This document shows positions 8,184 through 19,304 of a DNA stretch of 64,000 bases, piece by piece (the first letter of the stretch is position 1; each line of letters begins with the position of its first letter). The notes under the pieces were generated by a model, which worked only from the letters and a program-made list of their open reading frames with translations, was not told the origin of the DNA and ran no database searches. A program made the translations under genes and the position numbers. Source of the stretch: Felixounavirus AN17P8; the sequence record OZ035742.1; one strand, 5' to 3'.

Positions 8184-8757
8184 AAAAGGTCTAGTTAGAA
8201 CCTTAGTGGGTGTTATTGGTCACAGACTAGCTCGTGATAAAAATAATAGGCCAAACGTAATTAGAGCTTACCCTTCTGATAACTCAAATGACAAAGGTTT
8301 AAAACCTGACCAACCATTTATCACCGTATACTGTCAAGATGCTGCAACACCTTATGGTTGGGTTCTTGATAAGTTTGTTGAGGATGATGTAGTTTGTTAC
8401 AGAATTGCTTTTCAGATTCCTGTATTAATTACGGTGAATGGTAAAGGTGCTCACAGTATTATGCTTGAGCTTAAACAACGATTAGAGATGAGTTCAGTCA
8501 GAGATTTAATCCTTGAAGAGACAGGAGCTACAGTACTAGACACTGGAGCTATCCCGAATGACTATACTTATCTCAATACAGATTTCGAAAATTCTGCGCC
8601 TCTTGTTGTAACTCTTGTAAAAAACTCAGTCCTGAAGGATGAACGTGGAAGTATTATTGAGCGTGTCATTGTTGATGGTGAGTTGGTTTATGAAGAAGGA
8701 CAAGAGCCACCAGAATATACTATCCATCTAGATGTAGACTCCAAAGGGGTAAAATAA
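8158..8757 (+). CDS. hypothetical tail completion protein
   Basis: 199 aa ORF immediately upstream of putative sheath gene. Confidence 0.35.
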   Translation: MQLETAELEKGLVRTLVGVIGHRLARDKNNRPNVIRAYPSDNSNDKGLKPDQPFITVYCQDAATPYGWVLDKFVEDDVVCYRIAFQIPVLITVNGKGAHSIMLELKQRLEMSSVRDLILEETGATVLDTGAIPNDYTYLNTDFENSAPLVVTLVKNSVLKDERGSIIERVIVDGELVYEEGQEPPEYTIHLDVDSKGVK

Positions 8758-10110
8758 ATGTGGAATCCAATTGTTAATGTAGATATTACATTGAACACCG
8801 CAGGAACTACAAGAGAAGGTTTTGGTTTGCCACTATTCTTAGCTTCAACAGATAACTTTGAAGAAAGAGTGCGTGGTTACACTTCCTTAACTGAAGTTGC
8901 TGAAGATTTCGATGAGAATACTGCTGCATATAAGGCTGCTAAACAACTTTGGAGTCAGACTCCTAAAGTAACTCAGCTTTATATCGGTAGACGCGCTATG
9001 CAGTACACTGTATCAATTCCTGATGCCGTTACAGAAAGTACAGACTACTCAATTACTGTAGCTGCTGGCGGTGGAATTTCTCAACCATTCCAGTATACAG
9101 CACAAAGCTCAGATACTGCTGAGGTAGTTTTGCAACAGTTTAAAACACAGATTGAAGCTGACCCAACAATCAAAGATAAGGTTTCTGTGAACGTAACTGG
9201 TAGCAATGGTTCTGCCACAATGATTATTACCAAAGCTGGTGATAATGACTTTGTGAAAGTAACAACCACAGCACAGACTGTATATATTGCAAGTACAACT
9301 GCCGATACAGCATCAACTGCTCTGGCAGCTATCGAAGCTTATTCTACCGACTGGTATTTCATTGCAGCAGAAGACAGGACTCAACAGTTTGTCTTAGCAA
9401 TGGCTTCTGAGATTCAGGCTCGCAAGAAAATCTTCTTTACAGCTAACTCCGATGTAACAGCCCTGCAAGGTACAGAATTAGCCAGTGCAAATGATGTTCC
9501 AGCACAGCTTGCTAAGAATATGTACACTCGTACAGTTTGCTTGTGGCATCACGCAGCAGCAGAAGATTACCCAGAGATGGCATACATTGCTTATGGTGCT
9601 CCATATGATGCAGGTTCAATTGCTTGGGGTAATGCTCAGCTAACTGGTGTGGCAGCTTCTCTACAACCATCTAATCAGAGACCACTGACAAGTATTCAGA
9701 AGTCTGCTTTAGATGCACGTCACTGTAACTTTATTGACCTTGATGGTGGTGTTCCAGTGGTTCGTAGAGGGATTACTTCTGGTGGGGAATGGATTGATAT
9801 CGTCCGTGGTGTTGACTGGTTAGAATCAGACCTGAAAACTTCTCTGAGAGACTTGCTAATTAATCAGAAGGGTGGTAAGATTACTTATGATGATACTGGT
9901 ATTACCCGTATTCGTCAAGTCATTGAAACCTCTCTGCAAAGAGCAGTCAACAGAAACTTCCTGTCATCTTACACAGTTAATGTTCCTAAAGCCTCTCAAG
10001 TTGCTTTAGCAGACAAGAAAGCTCGTATCCTGAAAGACGTTACCTTCGCAGGTATCTTAGCAGGGGCTATCTTGGATGTTGACTTGAAAGGTACAGTGGC
10101 TTACGAATAA
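8758..10110 (+). CDS. tail sheath protein (putative)
   Basis: 450 aa ORF followed by a 148 aa ORF, a chaperone pair and tape measure: the canonical sheath-tube-chaperone-TMP order of contractile tails. Confidence 0.5.
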   Translation: MWNPIVNVDITLNTAGTTREGFGLPLFLASTDNFEERVRGYTSLTEVAEDFDENTAAYKAAKQLWSQTPKVTQLYIGRRAMQYTVSIPDAVTESTDYSITVAAGGGISQPFQYTAQSSDTAEVVLQQFKTQIEADPTIKDKVSVNVTGSNGSATMIITKAGDNDFVKVTTTAQTVYIASTTADTASTALAAIEAYSTDWYFIAAEDRTQQFVLAMASEIQARKKIFFTANSDVTALQGTELASANDVPAQLAKNMYTRTVCLWHHAAAEDYPEMAYIAYGAPYDAGSIAWGNAQLTGVAASLQPSNQRPLTSIQKSALDARHCNFIDLDGGVPVVRRGITSGGEWIDIVRGVDWLESDLKTSLRDLLINQKGGKITYDDTGITRIRQVIETSLQRAVNRNFLSSYTVNVPKASQVALADKKARILKDVTFAGILAGAILDVDLKGTVAYE

Positions 10111-10125
10111 TAGAGGTAAATTGGA

Positions 10126-10572
10126 ATGGCTATGTATCAGCAATATTCCCCTAAAGACGTTGTATGTAGCTGGAATGGTATTGCCATTGAAGGCTTTGCC
10201 CCAGACTCATTCTTGCGTCTACAGAGAACATCACCACTCGTGACACCAGTTGTTGGTGCAGGTGGTCAAGTTGCTCTGACACGAAATGCAGACAAGACAG
10301 GTACTATTGAGATTGAGCTAATGCAGACTTCTCTCTCTAACCAGATGCTTTCTGCAATTCAAGCTAAACAAGACAATATGGAACTTGAAGAAGATATCTC
10401 TTCTAACTTCGTAATCTACGACCCATCAGGCTCTGTTCTGGCAACTGGTATTAACGCTTGGTTGCAGGAGTTACCACAGATTGAACTTGGTCGTGACCAG
10501 AACTCTAAAACTTGGATTTTTGGTTGTGAGAAGTTAGACTACACTTCTACAATTCCAGCGTCAAGTGTTTAA
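10126..10572 (+). CDS. tail tube protein (putative)
   Basis: 148 aa ORF after sheath; followed by strong terminator. Confidence 0.5.
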   Translation: MAMYQQYSPKDVVCSWNGIAIEGFAPDSFLRLQRTSPLVTPVVGAGGQVALTRNADKTGTIEIELMQTSLSNQMLSAIQAKQDNMELEEDISSNFVIYDPSGSVLATGINAWLQELPQIELGRDQNSKTWIFGCEKLDYTSTIPASSV

Positions 10573-10583
10573 TAAATCCTATA

Positions 10584-10617
10584 AGGGGGAGACTTTAAAA
10601 GGTCTTCCCCTTTTTTG
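10584..10617 (+). terminator. rho-independent terminator
   Basis: GC-rich hairpin aagggggagac...gtcttcccc followed by TTTTTT. Confidence 0.6.
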
Positions 10618-10644
10618 TTTCTTTTAAAGTATTAAGGAATCACA

Positions 10645-11043
10645 ATGAAAACAGAATCTAGAATAATTAATGGTAAGAAAGTAAATATCGTTCTGCTTGG
10701 GGCAAGAGATGGTATTAAGATGTCTATGAAGTTGGGTAAAATTGTTGTTCCAACCTTTGCACAGATGCTATCAAGTCTGACTGACAAGGGTAAGAAGGAA
10801 GCTCCGATGGTTCCATTTAAAGAGCTTGTTGAAGCTTGTTTTGACAGAATTGAAGAAATTAACCTTGAAGAGATGGCTACCTTATTATTTCAAGGGGCAA
10901 CTGTTGACGACTTCCCACTTAATATTGATACGTACTTCCAAGCAAACTACGGTGAGTTTATTGATTACTTAGCATTTGCGCTGGAGGCAAACTTCGGAAG
11001 TTTTTTCGAAGCAAGCATTTTCAAAAGCCTAACTTCTCAGTAA
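10645..11043 (+). CDS. tail assembly chaperone (G-like)
   Basis: 132 aa ORF directly upstream of tape measure gene; contains slippery heptamer near 3' end. Confidence 0.5.
   Translation: MKTESRIINGKKVNIVLLGARDGIKMSMKLGKIVVPTFAQMLSSLTDKGKKEAPMVPFKELVEACFDRIEEINLEEMATLLFQGATVDDFPLNIDTYFQANYGEFIDYLAFALEANFGSFFEASIFKSLTSQ
11001..11007 (+). other. putative -1 programmed ribosomal frameshift slippery site (T TTT TTC)
   Basis: X_XXY_YYZ heptamer in frame of the 10645 ORF; the -1 frame is open from here through the ATG at 11046 and the whole 11046-11285 ORF. Confidence 0.45.
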
Positions 11044-11045
11044 AC

Positions 11046-11284
11046 ATGGGTAACACTCTACAGACACCACTAACTGATGCTGCTGTAGAGGCAACCTATG
11101 AAGAAGCAGACGAGATGAAATTTGTGCTTGCTATTTATGGTATGGAAGGGTGTAAAGAAACACTTGACCAACTCTTTGCTATGACATTCTCTGATTTATT
11201 ATCATTGAGACAATTTCTTGAGATTCAGAGGTCGTATAAAGAGGAAATTGCTTACAACGAACTTAGAAGAGCAGGAAAAATGTA

Positions 11285-11285
<1 letters not shown>
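11046..11285 (+). CDS. tail assembly chaperone frameshift-extension ORF (GT-like)
   Basis: 79 aa ORF in the -1 frame relative to upstream chaperone ORF, ending at the tape measure start. Confidence 0.45.

Positions 11286-19304
<8,019 letters not shown>

What the first reader, a model, noticed from the sequence alone, without database searches (positions are those of the whole stretch)
10999..11048. Probable -1 programmed frameshift joining the two tail assembly chaperone ORFs
The 132-aa chaperone ORF contains the slippery heptamer T TTT TTC (11001-11007) in the X_XXY_YYZ register. From that point the -1 frame has no stop and runs straight through the ATG of the next ORF (11046) to the tape measure start, so a shift would give a G-T-type fusion of about 120 + 94 aa. 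This arrangement upstream of the tape measure gene is conserved across tailed phages.
Basis: partly seen in the sequence, partly recalled or inferred. Interest (0 to 1): 0.45.

Follow-up and report, generated by a model that had tools for sequence, protein, structure and literature searches.

The report
Tail chaperone −1 frameshift site
This is the expected ribosome-slipping site in a Felix O1-type phage that lets one gene make a short and a long tail-assembly chaperone; the call is well supported but already annotated in near-identical phages, so it is ordinary.

Summary
T_TTT_TTC lies at 11001-11007 in the X_XXY_YYZ register of the 132-aa chaperone ORF (10645-11043). The −1 frame is open from 10965 to 11285 and ends on the tape-measure ATG. 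A slip gives a 213-aa product (121 + 92 aa).

The window is a Felixounavirus, 98.6% identical to Salmonella phage Mushroom. GenBank and RefSeq already hold exactly this kind of fusion protein for Mushroom, Moogle/Mijalis and Michonne.

Comparative evidence is strong:
- The heptamer and about 25 nt after it form an invariant island across five Ounavirinae lineages.
- Synonymous-codon identity is 0.93-0.94 there, against 0.35-0.7 elsewhere.
- The T-part ORF has no conserved start codon in most relatives.
- Distant PF21822 chaperones keep a U-rich slip motif at the same codon.
- One relative has no slip site and encodes the whole fusion as a separate 213-aa gene.

The most likely mechanism is tandem tRNA-Phe −1 slippage. 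A GGAGG 13 nt upstream may help; a downstream stimulatory structure is unproven. Transcriptional slippage on the T6 run is the main rival.

I found no experimental demonstration for this phage group. Verdict: supported, already known, low interest.

The parts
10645..11043 (+). Tail assembly chaperone ORF, the 'G'-like part (132 aa; Felix O1 gp65 equivalent). It is the zero-frame product.
   Evidence: Pfam PF21822 Phage_TAC_15, E 1.7e-19, 71 bits against a cut-off of 22. phrog_1613 tail assembly chaperone, E 4e-48.
10983..10987 (+). Shine-Dalgarno-like GGAGG, 13 nt before the heptamer. It is a possible dnaX-type upstream stimulator (inferred).
   Evidence: It meets the Sharma et al. criterion of an SD-like motif 6-17 nt before the motif's second base. 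It is present at the same spacing in 33 of 40 non-redundant family loci, against a 10-14% background. This is confounded by the conserved Glu-Ala/Val codons. It is absent in Kolesnikvirus, L036 and P778.
11001..11007 (+). Slippery heptamer T_TTT_TTC (U_UUU_UUC), in register. Both the P-site and A-site codons are read by tRNA-Phe.
   Evidence: It is identical in all Ounavirinae relatives examined. In all 32 lineages tabulated the site reads NNT TTT TTY, including genomes of 60-65% GC. It is the only in-frame TTTTTTC in the window.
10990..11030 (+). Invariant nucleotide island: the slip site plus about 23 nt downstream. This is the dual-coding start of the −1 product.
   Evidence: It is the only stretch of 10600-11320 that blastn aligns to the Erwinia phiEa21-4-like phages, at 92.7%. 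It shows as invariant columns in alignment A2. Synonymous-codon identity is 0.93-0.94 here against 0.35-0.7 elsewhere. There are zero variable sites at 10993-11047 among 23 Felixounavirus sequences.
11007..11285 (+). −1-frame segment read after the slip, the 'T'-like part (92 codons plus the TAA stop at 11283-11285). It begins RSKHFQKPNFSVN, upstream of the annotated ATG.
   Evidence: It is 51% identical to the start-less −1 ORF of phiEa21-4. It is homologous to the C-terminal half of a contiguous 213-aa protein in L083.
11046..11285 (+). ORF2 as usually annotated (79 aa; Felix O1 gp66). It is most likely not an independent gene but the tail of the frameshift product.
   Evidence: phrog_4963. 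No SD-like sequence lies before its ATG, and the start is not conserved: TTG in P778, ATG 4-5 codons later in Mooglevirus and its relative L030, and none until codon 55 in Kolesnikvirus.
11011..11131 (+). Predicted long-range RNA structure. Its closing stem is GCAAGCAUUUUCA/UGAAAUUUGUGCUUGC and it starts 4 nt after the heptamer. It is a candidate stimulator and is unproven.
   Evidence: dG −36.3 kcal/mol. The 161-nt context has z = −2.56. It is preserved in Felixounavirus, Suspvirus and Mooglevirus without any covariation. Its 3' arm is not conserved in Kolesnikvirus, L036 or P778.
11019..11022 (+). In-register U_UUC tetramer (ATT TTC). It is a possible minor second slip site (speculative).
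   Evidence: Sequence. U_UU.C is the second most shift-prone tetramer in E. coli.
11285..13513 (+). Tape measure protein gene (742 aa). Its ATG overlaps the stop of the −1 ORF.
   Evidence: phrog_4036, E = 0. Annotated as the tape measure in relatives.
10126..10572 (+). Tail tube gene (148 aa), immediately upstream of the chaperone. This is context.
   Evidence: PF11681 (KPP10_Orf10 / Phage_Tube_PhiTE). phrog_280.

Best explanation
This is the programmed −1 ribosomal frameshift site of the tail assembly chaperone gene of a Felix O1-like myophage.

Most ribosomes translate 10645-11043 and stop, giving the 132-aa chaperone. A minority slip back one base while tRNA-Phe occupies both the P site (UUU) and the A site (UUC) on U_UUU_UUC (11001-11007). 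Both tRNAs re-pair with UUU UUU. Translation then continues in the −1 frame from CGA (11007) to the TAA at 11283-11285. The product is a 213-aa fusion of 121 chaperone residues and 92 'T' residues.

By analogy with lambda G/GT and P2 E/E+E', both proteins coat the tape measure protein. The rarer T extension recruits tail tube subunits. Neither protein ends up in the virion.

The 79-aa 'ORF2' of many annotations is the tail of this fusion, not a separate gene.

- **Shown:** the sequence anatomy, the conservation, the absence of a conserved start codon and the existence of a contiguous homologue of the fusion.
- **Inferred:** that slippage actually happens, its rate, the helper elements (GGAGG 13 nt upstream, downstream structure) and the protein functions.
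For: 1. **Anatomy.** The in-register heptamer, the open −1 frame from 10965 to 11285 and the junction with the tape-measure ATG.
2. **Gene identities and order.** Sheath, tube, PF21822 chaperone, tape measure.
3. **Motif efficiency.** U_UU.U_UU.Y is among the most efficient −1 motifs in E. coli (PMC4066793).
4. **Conservation within Ounavirinae.**
   - TTTTTTC sits at the same codon in all the lineages examined: Felixounavirus (window and Felix O1), Suspvirus, Mooglevirus, Kolesnikvirus and Yersinia phage P778.
   - Positions 10990-11030 are the only nucleotide-level match to the Erwinia phages.
   - Synonymous-codon identity peaks at 0.93-0.94 on the site and returns to baseline inside the T-part.
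5. **Codon choice.** All 32 non-redundant lineages encode the site as NNT TTT TTY. Their local codon usage predicts this with probability 0.03-0.5 each.
6. **Unbiased sampling of non-SFF lineages.** Three have T_TTT_TTC or T_TTT_TTG, one has A_AAT_TTT and two have a U_UUU tetramer, all at the same homologous site.
7. **Start codons.** In most relatives the T-part ORF has no start codon near its beginning: first at codon 55 of 94 in phiEa21-4, and at 35-62 in others. It nevertheless stays open for 78-105 codons and ends at the tape-measure start. Its protein is conserved (51% identity).
8. **Contiguous homologue.** Locus L083 has no slip site. It encodes a separate 213-aa protein that aligns end to end with the predicted fusion, across the junction (E 2e-18; T-part alone E 9e-8).
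9. **Existing annotation.** The exact fusion proteins predicted by a slip at this heptamer are deposited for Mushroom (AJF40599.1), Moogle/Mijalis (AIW03804.1, ARB06563.1) and Michonne (AKU44019.1) (joined CDS).
10. **Virion proteome.** The Felix O1 virion proteome found gp63, gp64 and gp67 but not gp65 or gp66, as expected for chaperones (PMC3185647).
11. **Register.** Position 1 of the heptamer is always T, while position 7 varies among C, T and G. That is the constraint expected for tRNA re-pairing rather than for run length alone.
Against: - I found no direct evidence (protein, reporter or ribosome profiling) for any Felix O1-like phage.
- No conserved compact downstream hairpin or pseudoknot exists in this window. 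RNA 11008-11090 folds no better than shuffles (z −0.78). The long-range stem has no covariation and is not conserved in three Ounavirinae lineages.
- The upstream GGAGG is explained at least partly by conserved Glu-Ala codons and is missing in Kolesnikvirus, L036 and P778.
- The window has an ATG at 11046, two bases after the ORF1 stop. Some independent reinitiation cannot be excluded.
- A one-U insertion by RNA polymerase on the T6 run would give an identical protein.
- The 75-of-75 conservation figure is inflated, because one search pattern required the SFF peptide. In an unbiased protein sample only 89 of 145 family members have xxFF at the site.
Confidence: 0.82

Rival explanations
1. Transcriptional slippage. 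RNA polymerase stutters on the T6 run (11001-11006) and adds one U to a fraction of mRNAs. Standard translation of those mRNAs then gives the same 213-aa fusion.
For: - The site is a homopolymer.
- Some relatives carry T7 or T8 runs at this site (for example L042, L047 and L051).
- The terminator scan flags a weak hairpin (10981-10997) just before the run. Hairpin-assisted slippage is a known mechanism (my own knowledge: Penno et al. 2015).
- The protein product cannot be told apart from that of ribosomal slippage.
Against: - T6 is shorter than the runs of about 8-9 or more that are normally needed for appreciable slippage by bacterial RNA polymerase (my own knowledge: Baranov et al. 2005).
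- The upstream hairpin is weak here (z −1.25) and is not conserved in position or strength across relatives.
- The T run always begins at heptamer position 1, and no lineage has NNV TTT TTT, which would be an equally long run out of register.
- Related lineages use A_AAT_TTT or only T5 at the same site. These suit tRNA re-pairing but not polymerase stuttering.
Confidence: 0.08
2. No recoding. ORF2 (11046-11285) is an ordinary small gene translated from its own ATG by termination-reinitiation coupling at TAA-AC-ATG, and the heptamer is incidental.
For: - An ATG lies 2 nt after the ORF1 stop.
- Most database records, including RefSeq Felix O1, annotate two separate genes.
- A tight stop-start junction can support reinitiation.
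Against: - There is no SD-like sequence before the ATG, and the start is not conserved. Kolesnikvirus and many other relatives have no start codon for the first 35-62 codons of the conserved ORF.
- Synonymous constraint begins at the heptamer, about 45 nt before the ATG.
- The −1 peptide RSKHFQKP upstream of the ATG is conserved. It is matched in a contiguous homologue.
Confidence: 0.05
3. The shift occurs elsewhere in the overlap, by single-tRNA slippage at the in-register U_UUC tetramer (11019-11022). This would give a fusion with a slightly different junction.
For: - U_UU.C is the second-best tetramer in E. coli.
- The tetramer lies in the invariant island.
- Two distant relatives have only a U_UUU tetramer at the main site.
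Against: - In the paper's tests the tetramers reached about ten-fold lower maximal frameshifting than the heptamers, and were barely shifty without a strong stimulator.
- The conserved feature across the family is the heptamer position, not this tetramer.
- The contiguous L083 homologue aligns best with the junction placed at FF|R.
Confidence: 0.03

Closest known systems
Bacteriophage P2 E / E+E' tail chaperone frameshift (Christie et al. 2002, as described in PMC3091744)
   Same: - Both are contractile-tailed phages.
- In both, two products come from one start in the genes between the tail tube and tape measure genes.
- Both use a −1 shift on a U6-type heptamer: TTTTTTG in P2, TTTTTTC here and TTTTTTG in relative L087.
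- Neither has a required downstream hairpin.
   Different: - The chaperone belongs to a different Pfam family (PF21822, not the P2 gpE family).
- There is no detectable sequence similarity to P2 gpE, which I did not test beyond the Pfam assignment.
- The sizes differ: 132/213 aa here against 91/142 aa in P2.
- P2 is demonstrated experimentally. This case is not.
Bacteriophage lambda G / GT frameshift (Levin et al. 1993; Xu et al. 2004, 2013, 2014, as summarised in PMC5009743)
   Same: - The gene position is the same, immediately before the tape measure.
- Both have a short abundant product and a rare −1 extension.
- Neither product is expected in virions; Felix O1 gp65 and gp66 are absent from the virion proteome.
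   Different: - Lambda uses G_GGA_AAG, is a siphovirus and has an unrelated sequence.
- The roughly 30:1 ratio and the binding partners are measured for lambda and only inferred here.
Annotated 'tape measure chaperone' joined CDS of Salmonella phage Mushroom, and of Citrobacter phages Moogle, Mijalis and Michonne
   Same: - It is the same gene, heptamer and junction.
- Mushroom is 98.6% identical to the window over 8700-13600.
- The deposited fusion proteins equal the products predicted by a slip at T_TTT_TTC.
- The frameshift is stated in the genome announcements PMC4319497 and PMC5543628.
   Different: - These are predictions by annotators, not experiments.
- The window's own exact fusion sequence is not in the protein collection.
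- Most sister records, including RefSeq Felix O1, still list two separate genes.
E. coli dnaX −1 frameshift (upstream SD-like stimulator plus downstream hairpin)
   Same: An SD-like GGAGG lies at a spacing accepted as stimulatory (13-14 nt) upstream of a homopolymeric heptamer.
   Different: - There is no conserved compact downstream hairpin here.
- In dnaX the shift gives a shorter product, whereas here it gives a longer one.
- The role of the SD-like sequence is untested and is confounded by coding constraint.

Membership tests
G/GT-type tail assembly chaperone with programmed −1 frameshift (Xu, Hendrix & Duda 2004) | Two overlapping ORFs lie between the major tail/tube gene and the tape measure gene. 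| tested here: met
   The order is tube 10126-10572, ORF1 10645-11043, −1 ORF to 11285, and tape measure from 11285.
G/GT-type tail assembly chaperone with programmed −1 frameshift (Xu, Hendrix & Duda 2004) | The second ORF is in the −1 frame and is open back across the end of the first ORF. | tested here: met
   The −1 frame is open from 10965 to 11285, a 79-nt overlap. The +1 frame extends only 4 codons.
G/GT-type tail assembly chaperone with programmed −1 frameshift (Xu, Hendrix & Duda 2004) | A slippery X_XXY_YYZ heptamer lies in the zero-frame register inside the overlap. | tested here: met
   T_TTT_TTC at 11001-11007 is the only such heptamer in the overlap.
G/GT-type tail assembly chaperone with programmed −1 frameshift (Xu, Hendrix & Duda 2004) | The slip site and the two-frame arrangement are conserved in diverged relatives. 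| tested here: met
   The 75 loci are ascertainment-biased. Unbiased sampling gives a U-rich slip motif at the same site in 6 of 7 lineages and a hard-wired fusion gene in the seventh.
G/GT-type tail assembly chaperone with programmed −1 frameshift (Xu, Hendrix & Duda 2004) | The downstream ORF lacks its own functional translation start. | tested here: met
   The window's ATG has no SD-like sequence. Start codons are absent or not conserved in relatives. phiEa21-4 has no gene annotated there at all. Reinitiation in this particular phage is not excluded.
G/GT-type tail assembly chaperone with programmed −1 frameshift (Xu, Hendrix & Duda 2004) | The first ORF is a tail assembly chaperone homologue. 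| tested here: met
   PF21822 at 71 bits against a cut-off of 22. phrog_1613. The fold comparison with PDB was uninformative: best E 0.47 and no sequence relative in PDB.
G/GT-type tail assembly chaperone with programmed −1 frameshift (Xu, Hendrix & Duda 2004) | A fusion protein is made at a low, fixed ratio and is required for tail assembly. | not testable with these tools
   No experimental report was found. The only indirect support is the contiguous 213-aa homologue in L083.
G/GT-type tail assembly chaperone with programmed −1 frameshift (Xu, Hendrix & Duda 2004) | The products are absent from mature virions. | tested here: met
   The literature check met this: the Felix O1 virion proteome lists gp63, gp64 and gp67 but not gp65 or gp66 (PMC3185647).
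SD-stimulated −1 frameshifting (dnaX type) | An SD-like sequence lies 6-17 nt upstream of the motif and is conserved. | tested here: inconclusive
   GGAGG is at 10983-10987 with a spacing of 13-14 nt. It occurs in 33 of 40 family loci against a 10-14% background. It is absent in three Ounavirinae lineages and is confounded by the conserved Glu-Ala/Val codons. GAG makes up 36% of Glu codons in the window.
Hairpin/pseudoknot-stimulated −1 frameshifting (IS3/IS911 type) | A stable structure starts 4-10 nt after the motif and is conserved or covarying. | tested here: inconclusive
   The window has only a 121-nt long-range structure, with no covariation and a 3' arm that is not conserved. Compact hairpins with 6-9 nt spacers do occur in GC-rich relatives. 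There is no Rfam match.
Programmed transcriptional slippage | A homopolymer run long enough for polymerase realignment (usually 8-9 or more), or a shorter run with an adjacent conserved nascent-RNA hairpin. | tested here: not met
   The run is T6. The upstream hairpin is weak and not conserved. The run is register-locked. Direct RNA evidence cannot be obtained with these tools.

The most novel reading that the evidence does not exclude
PF21822 chaperones may be a natural series in which one fixed recoding site is served by interchangeable solutions: U6Y heptamer, A_AAU_UUU, a bare U5 tetramer, and a duplicated hard-wired fusion gene. In Ounavirinae, the invariant 30-nt island after the heptamer (GAAGCAAGCAUUUUCAAAA) may be more than dual coding. 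It could be a sequence-specific stimulator, acting through the mRNA or the nascent peptide, of a kind not yet described for phage tail frameshifts.
Probability: 0.12. Interest if true: 0.4.

Novelty: already known. Interest (0 to 1): 0.15.

Why it matters
The practical value is in annotation. Most Felix O1-like records, including RefSeq Felix O1, list a 79-aa 'tail assembly chaperone' or 'hypothetical protein' that is almost certainly only the tail of a 213-aa frameshift product. phiEa21-4-type records leave the region empty.

Felix O1-like phages are used for Salmonella typing, biocontrol and therapy. Correct gene models matter for engineering them, because recoding or codon-optimising this segment would destroy tail assembly.

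Biologically it adds one more well-conserved example to a textbook phenomenon. It does not open a new question.

Tried and rejected
- **Compact downstream hairpin or pseudoknot in the window.** RNA 11008-11090 folds no better than shuffles (z −0.78).
- **Long-range stem 11011-11023 / 11115-11131.** It is predicted, but it shows no covariation, and its 3' arm is not conserved in Kolesnikvirus, L036 or P778. I did not accept it as a stimulator.
- **Upstream hairpin as a driver of transcriptional slippage.** It is not conserved.
- **Known RNA families.** There is no Rfam match at the site. The weak hits are to the upstream terminator only.
- **Structural membership.**
  - The AlphaFold2 model of ORF1 has mean pLDDT 77.5.
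  - Foldseek against PDB gave no significant match; the best was 5ir0, E 0.47.
  - A profile search of PDB sequences found nothing.
- **Experimental evidence in the literature.**
  - The Felix O1 genome paper does not mention a frameshift.
  - The PhageMaP preprint on the Felixounavirus Bas63 says nothing about these genes in its main text.
  - Xu et al. 2004 and Christie et al. 2002 are not held in the library.
- **The '75 of 75 loci have the heptamer' figure.** I downgraded it after seeing that one search pattern demanded the SFF peptide. I replaced it with an unbiased HMMER sample and DNA look-ups of the other motif classes.
- **The low-diversity trough over the T-part within Felixounavirus.** I considered it as evidence for an RNA element. 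Between genera, synonymous conservation in the T-part is at baseline, so I left it as unexplained.
Full report
**What is in the sequence**

ORF1 runs from 10645 to 11043 and encodes 132 aa. Around the site its codons read GGA AGT TTT TTC GAA. T_TTT_TTC at 11001-11007 therefore sits exactly in the X_XXY_YYZ register.

ORF2 (11046-11285, 79 aa) is in the −1 frame relative to ORF1. The nearest −1-frame stop upstream is the TGA at 10962-10964. The −1 frame is thus open from 10965 to the TAA at 11283-11285, and that TAA overlaps the ATG of the 742-aa tape measure gene by one base.

A slip on the heptamer gives 121 + 92 = 213 aa.

**Is it more than chance?**

I counted in-register X_XXY_YYZ heptamers in 66 long ORFs of the window (18,403 codon positions). 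There are 59.
- The chance of any such heptamer in the 26-codon overlap is about 8%.
- The chance of a high-efficiency motif is about 1.5%.
- In-frame TTTTTTC occurs once in the whole window, at this site.

This is suggestive on its own. The comparative data below make it decisive.

**What the locus is**

The segment 8700-13600 is 98.6% identical to Salmonella phage Mushroom and 98.2% identical to Felix O1. It matches 297 phage records, nearly all in the Ounavirinae.

The gene order is as follows:
- tail sheath: phrog_205, PF11863
- tail tube: PF11681
- ORF1: Pfam PF21822 Phage_TAC_15, E 1.7e-19; phrog_1613 tail assembly chaperone
- ORF2: phrog_4963
- tape measure: phrog_4036
- a Dit-like protein

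**It is already annotated in relatives**

GenBank Mushroom and Mijalis carry a two-piece joined CDS named 'tape measure chaperone' across exactly this region. RefSeq Felix O1 lists two separate chaperone genes.

I built the fusion proteins that a slip at the heptamer predicts for Mushroom and Mijalis and looked them up by exact sequence. Both are in the collection:
- AJF40599.1 / YP_009600435.1 for Mushroom
- AIW03804.1 / ARB06563.1 / YP_009145710.1 for Moogle and Mijalis

A 212-aa Michonne homologue (AKU44019.1) is also present.

The genome announcements for Moogle and Mijalis, both described as Felix O1-like, state that the tape measure chaperone has a translational frameshift. The Mijalis announcement cites Xu et al. 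2004.

**Conservation within Ounavirinae**

A sensitive blastn of 10600-11320 found that, in the Erwinia phiEa21-4-like phages, the only stretch alignable at nucleotide level is 10990-11030, at 92.7% identity. That stretch is the heptamer plus about 23 nt.

TTTTTTC is at the same codon and inside the −1 overlap in Felix O1, SUSP2, Mijalis, Sf16, phiEa21-4 and Yersinia phage P778. A nine-sequence alignment shows a block of invariant columns from 10999 to about 11029, flanked by diverged sequence.

I measured how often identical amino acids use identical codons.
- Along most of ORF1 this fraction is 0.35-0.7.
- It rises to 0.93-0.94 in windows covering 10996-11030.
- In the −1 frame it is 0.90 for the first nine post-shift codons.
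- It then falls to the baseline of about 0.5-0.6, the same as the tape measure gene.

Within Felixounavirus (23 distinct sequences) there are no variable sites from 10993 to 11047.

The extra constraint therefore begins at the slip site, about 45 nt before the ATG of 'ORF2'. That is expected if the −1 frame is translated from the heptamer onward.

**ORF2 is not an independent gene in most relatives**

After the heptamer, the −1 ORF stays open for 78-105 codons and ends at or next to the tape measure start in every relative examined. Its potential start codons, however, are not conserved.

| Lineage | First potential start in the −1 ORF |
|---|---|
| Window, Suspvirus | ATG at post-shift codon 13, with no SD-like sequence |
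| Mooglevirus and its relative L030 | ATG 4-5 codons later |
| Yersinia phage P778 | only a TTG |
| Kolesnikvirus | codon 55 of 94 |
| Many metagenomic relatives | codons 35-62 |

In phiEa21-4 nothing is annotated in the 236-nt gap. Its −1 ORF is nevertheless 51% identical to the window's T-part, starting with the identical RSKHFQKP encoded upstream of the window's ATG.

**Wider family, and a correction for sampling bias**

A pattern-based search of viral contigs returned 75 loci, with chaperone identity running from 99% down to 23%. All of them have T_TTT_TTC or T_TTT_TTT in register inside the overlap. In the 32 non-redundant lineages I tabulated, the site is always encoded NNT TTT TTY. This holds even in 60-65% GC genomes, where local codon usage predicts it with probability 0.03-0.07.

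One of the two search patterns required the SFF peptide, so this sample is biased.

An unbiased HMMER search of 1.84 billion representatives gave 200 family members. Of the 150 best listed, 145 are full-length, and 89 of these have xxFF at the site. The rest have SFL, SLF, SVF, NFS and other variants.

I fetched DNA for seven of the non-SFF classes:

| Locus | Peptide class | Codons at the site | Motif |
|---|---|---|---|
| L085 | DFF | GAT TTT TTC | T_TTT_TTC |
| L086 | NFF | AAT TTT TTC | T_TTT_TTC |
| L087 | SFL | TCT TTT TTG | T_TTT_TTG, the P2 heptamer |
| L088 | NFS | AAT TTT TCC | A_AAT_TTT |
| L084 | SLF | CTT TTT | U_UUU tetramer only |
| L089 | SVF | GTT TTT | U_UUU tetramer only |
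| L083 | SFL | AGT TTC CTC | no slippery motif |

L083 instead carries, right after the chaperone gene, a separate 213-aa gene with its own ATG.
- Its N-terminal half is a chaperone paralogue (phrog_1613, E 4e-11).
- The whole protein aligns end to end with the window's predicted fusion, across the junction (28% identity, E 2e-18).
- The window's T-part alone matches its residues 119-205 (E 9e-8).

This contiguous homologue is independent evidence that the chaperone-plus-T architecture is a real protein.

**Mechanism**

Both zero-frame codons of the heptamer (UUU, UUC) are read by tRNA-Phe, and both −1 codons are UUU. Re-pairing is therefore cognate at both sites.

Sharma et al. 2014 place H_HH.U_UU.Y among the most efficient heptamers in E. 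coli. They list U_UU.U_UU.C among motifs giving more than 0.10% shifting without any stimulator.

I applied their two stimulator criteria.

SD-like sequence upstream:
- The window has GGAGG at 10983-10987, which is 13 nt before the heptamer and 14 nt before its second base.
- 33 of 40 non-redundant family loci have such a motif at the same spacing, against 10-14% at random positions.
- It arises from conserved Glu-Ala/Val codons, so coding constraint may explain it.
- It is absent from Kolesnikvirus, L036 and P778.
- I count it as possible.

Downstream structure:
- RNA 11008-11090 folds no better than shuffles.
- The only qualifying structure is a 121-nt long-range fold starting 4 nt after the motif.
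- Its arms are invariant in the three closest genera, so there is no covariation.
- Its 3' arm is not conserved in the other lineages.
- GC-rich relatives do have compact hairpins 6-9 nt after the motif.
- P2, which uses TTTTTTG, also lacks a downstream structure.

The invariant island is adequately explained by dual coding: SFFEASIFK in the zero frame and FFRSKHFQKP in the −1 frame. A sequence-specific role cannot be excluded.

**Rival explanations**

Transcriptional slippage on the T6 run would give the same protein.
- Against it, the run is short.
- The small hairpin before it is weak and not conserved.
- The run is locked to heptamer position 1, and NNV TTT TTT is never seen.
- Relatives use A_AAT_TTT or only T5 at the same site.

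Independent initiation of ORF2 is contradicted by the start-codon and synonymous-site data above. Some reinitiation in this particular phage remains possible.

A minor slip at the in-register U_UUC tetramer (11019-11022) is conceivable but unsupported.

**Experimental status**

I found no measurement of a fusion product or frameshift efficiency for any Felix O1-like phage. The Felix O1 genome and proteome paper does not mention a frameshift. It detected gp63, gp64 and gp67 in virions but not gp65 or gp66. This agrees with the behaviour of lambda G and GT, neither of which is present in mature virions.

**Verdict**

It belongs to a well-known class (lambda G/GT, P2 E/E+E'). The same site is already annotated in phages 98% identical to this window.

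The additions from this work are modest:
- family-wide evidence that the site is fixed while the slip motif varies
- a relative in which the fusion is a separate, contiguous gene
- evidence that the common two-gene annotation is wrong

Interest is low.

Noticed in passing
window 10965-11300: Within Felixounavirus (22-23 distinct sequences), nucleotide diversity drops across the whole −1 ORF. It is 0.002 in the overlap and 0.006 in the T-part, against 0.042 in the chaperone body and in the tape measure gene, and it rises again right at the tape measure start. Between genera, synonymous conservation in the T-part is only at baseline. The cause is unclear; a recent sweep or recombination block, or a genus-specific RNA element, are possibilities.
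   Followed up: partly
window 10583-10621: A strong intrinsic-terminator-like hairpin (13 pairs, then TTTTGTTTCT) lies between the tail tube gene and the chaperone gene. It is annotated as a terminator in Mijalis and several other relatives. It would lower transcription of the chaperone and tape measure genes relative to the sheath and tube genes.
   Followed up: partly
window 11572-11578: A_AAA_AAG, the most shift-prone E. coli heptamer, lies in register inside the tape measure gene. The −1 frame stops after 5 codons. It is present in Felix O1 and Mushroom but not in the Suspvirus or Mooglevirus loci. It is probably incidental.
   Followed up: partly
L083 1201-2246 (Logan SRR21680730 contig): This relative has two tandem PF21822-type genes: a 134-aa chaperone without any slippery site, then a 213-aa paralogue with a T-like C-terminal half and its own ATG. 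It is a hard-wired equivalent of the frameshift product. The Dit-like gene lies upstream of the chaperone rather than after the tape measure.
   Followed up: partly
L084 site near 400; L089 site near 790; L088 1278: Other family members carry only a U_UUU tetramer (CTT TTT, GTT TTT), or A_AAT_TTT, at the homologous site. They still have a 54-78-codon −1 extension reaching the next gene. The slip motif is therefore interchangeable at a fixed position.
   Followed up: partly
L003 1270-1505 (Erwinia phage phiEa21-4, EU710883) and L001 (RefSeq Felix O1): Database annotation is inconsistent. phiEa21-4 leaves the 236-nt T-part region unannotated. RefSeq Felix O1 and most records call two separate genes, with names ranging from 'hypothetical protein' to 'head closure protein'.
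   Followed up: yes
protein cluster of ORF1: 132-aa chaperones in the same 90%-identity cluster as ORF1 are deposited under bacterial names, for example Staphylococcus hyicus WP_252560994.1 and several E. coli assemblies. These are most likely phage contigs or contamination in bacterial assemblies.
   Followed up: no
window 13513-14313: The 266-aa gene after the tape measure is a Dit-like tail protein (PF21821, E 4e-20). Its secondary PHROG hits are labelled 'endolysin' and 'tail fiber protein', which look like misleading family names.
   Followed up: no
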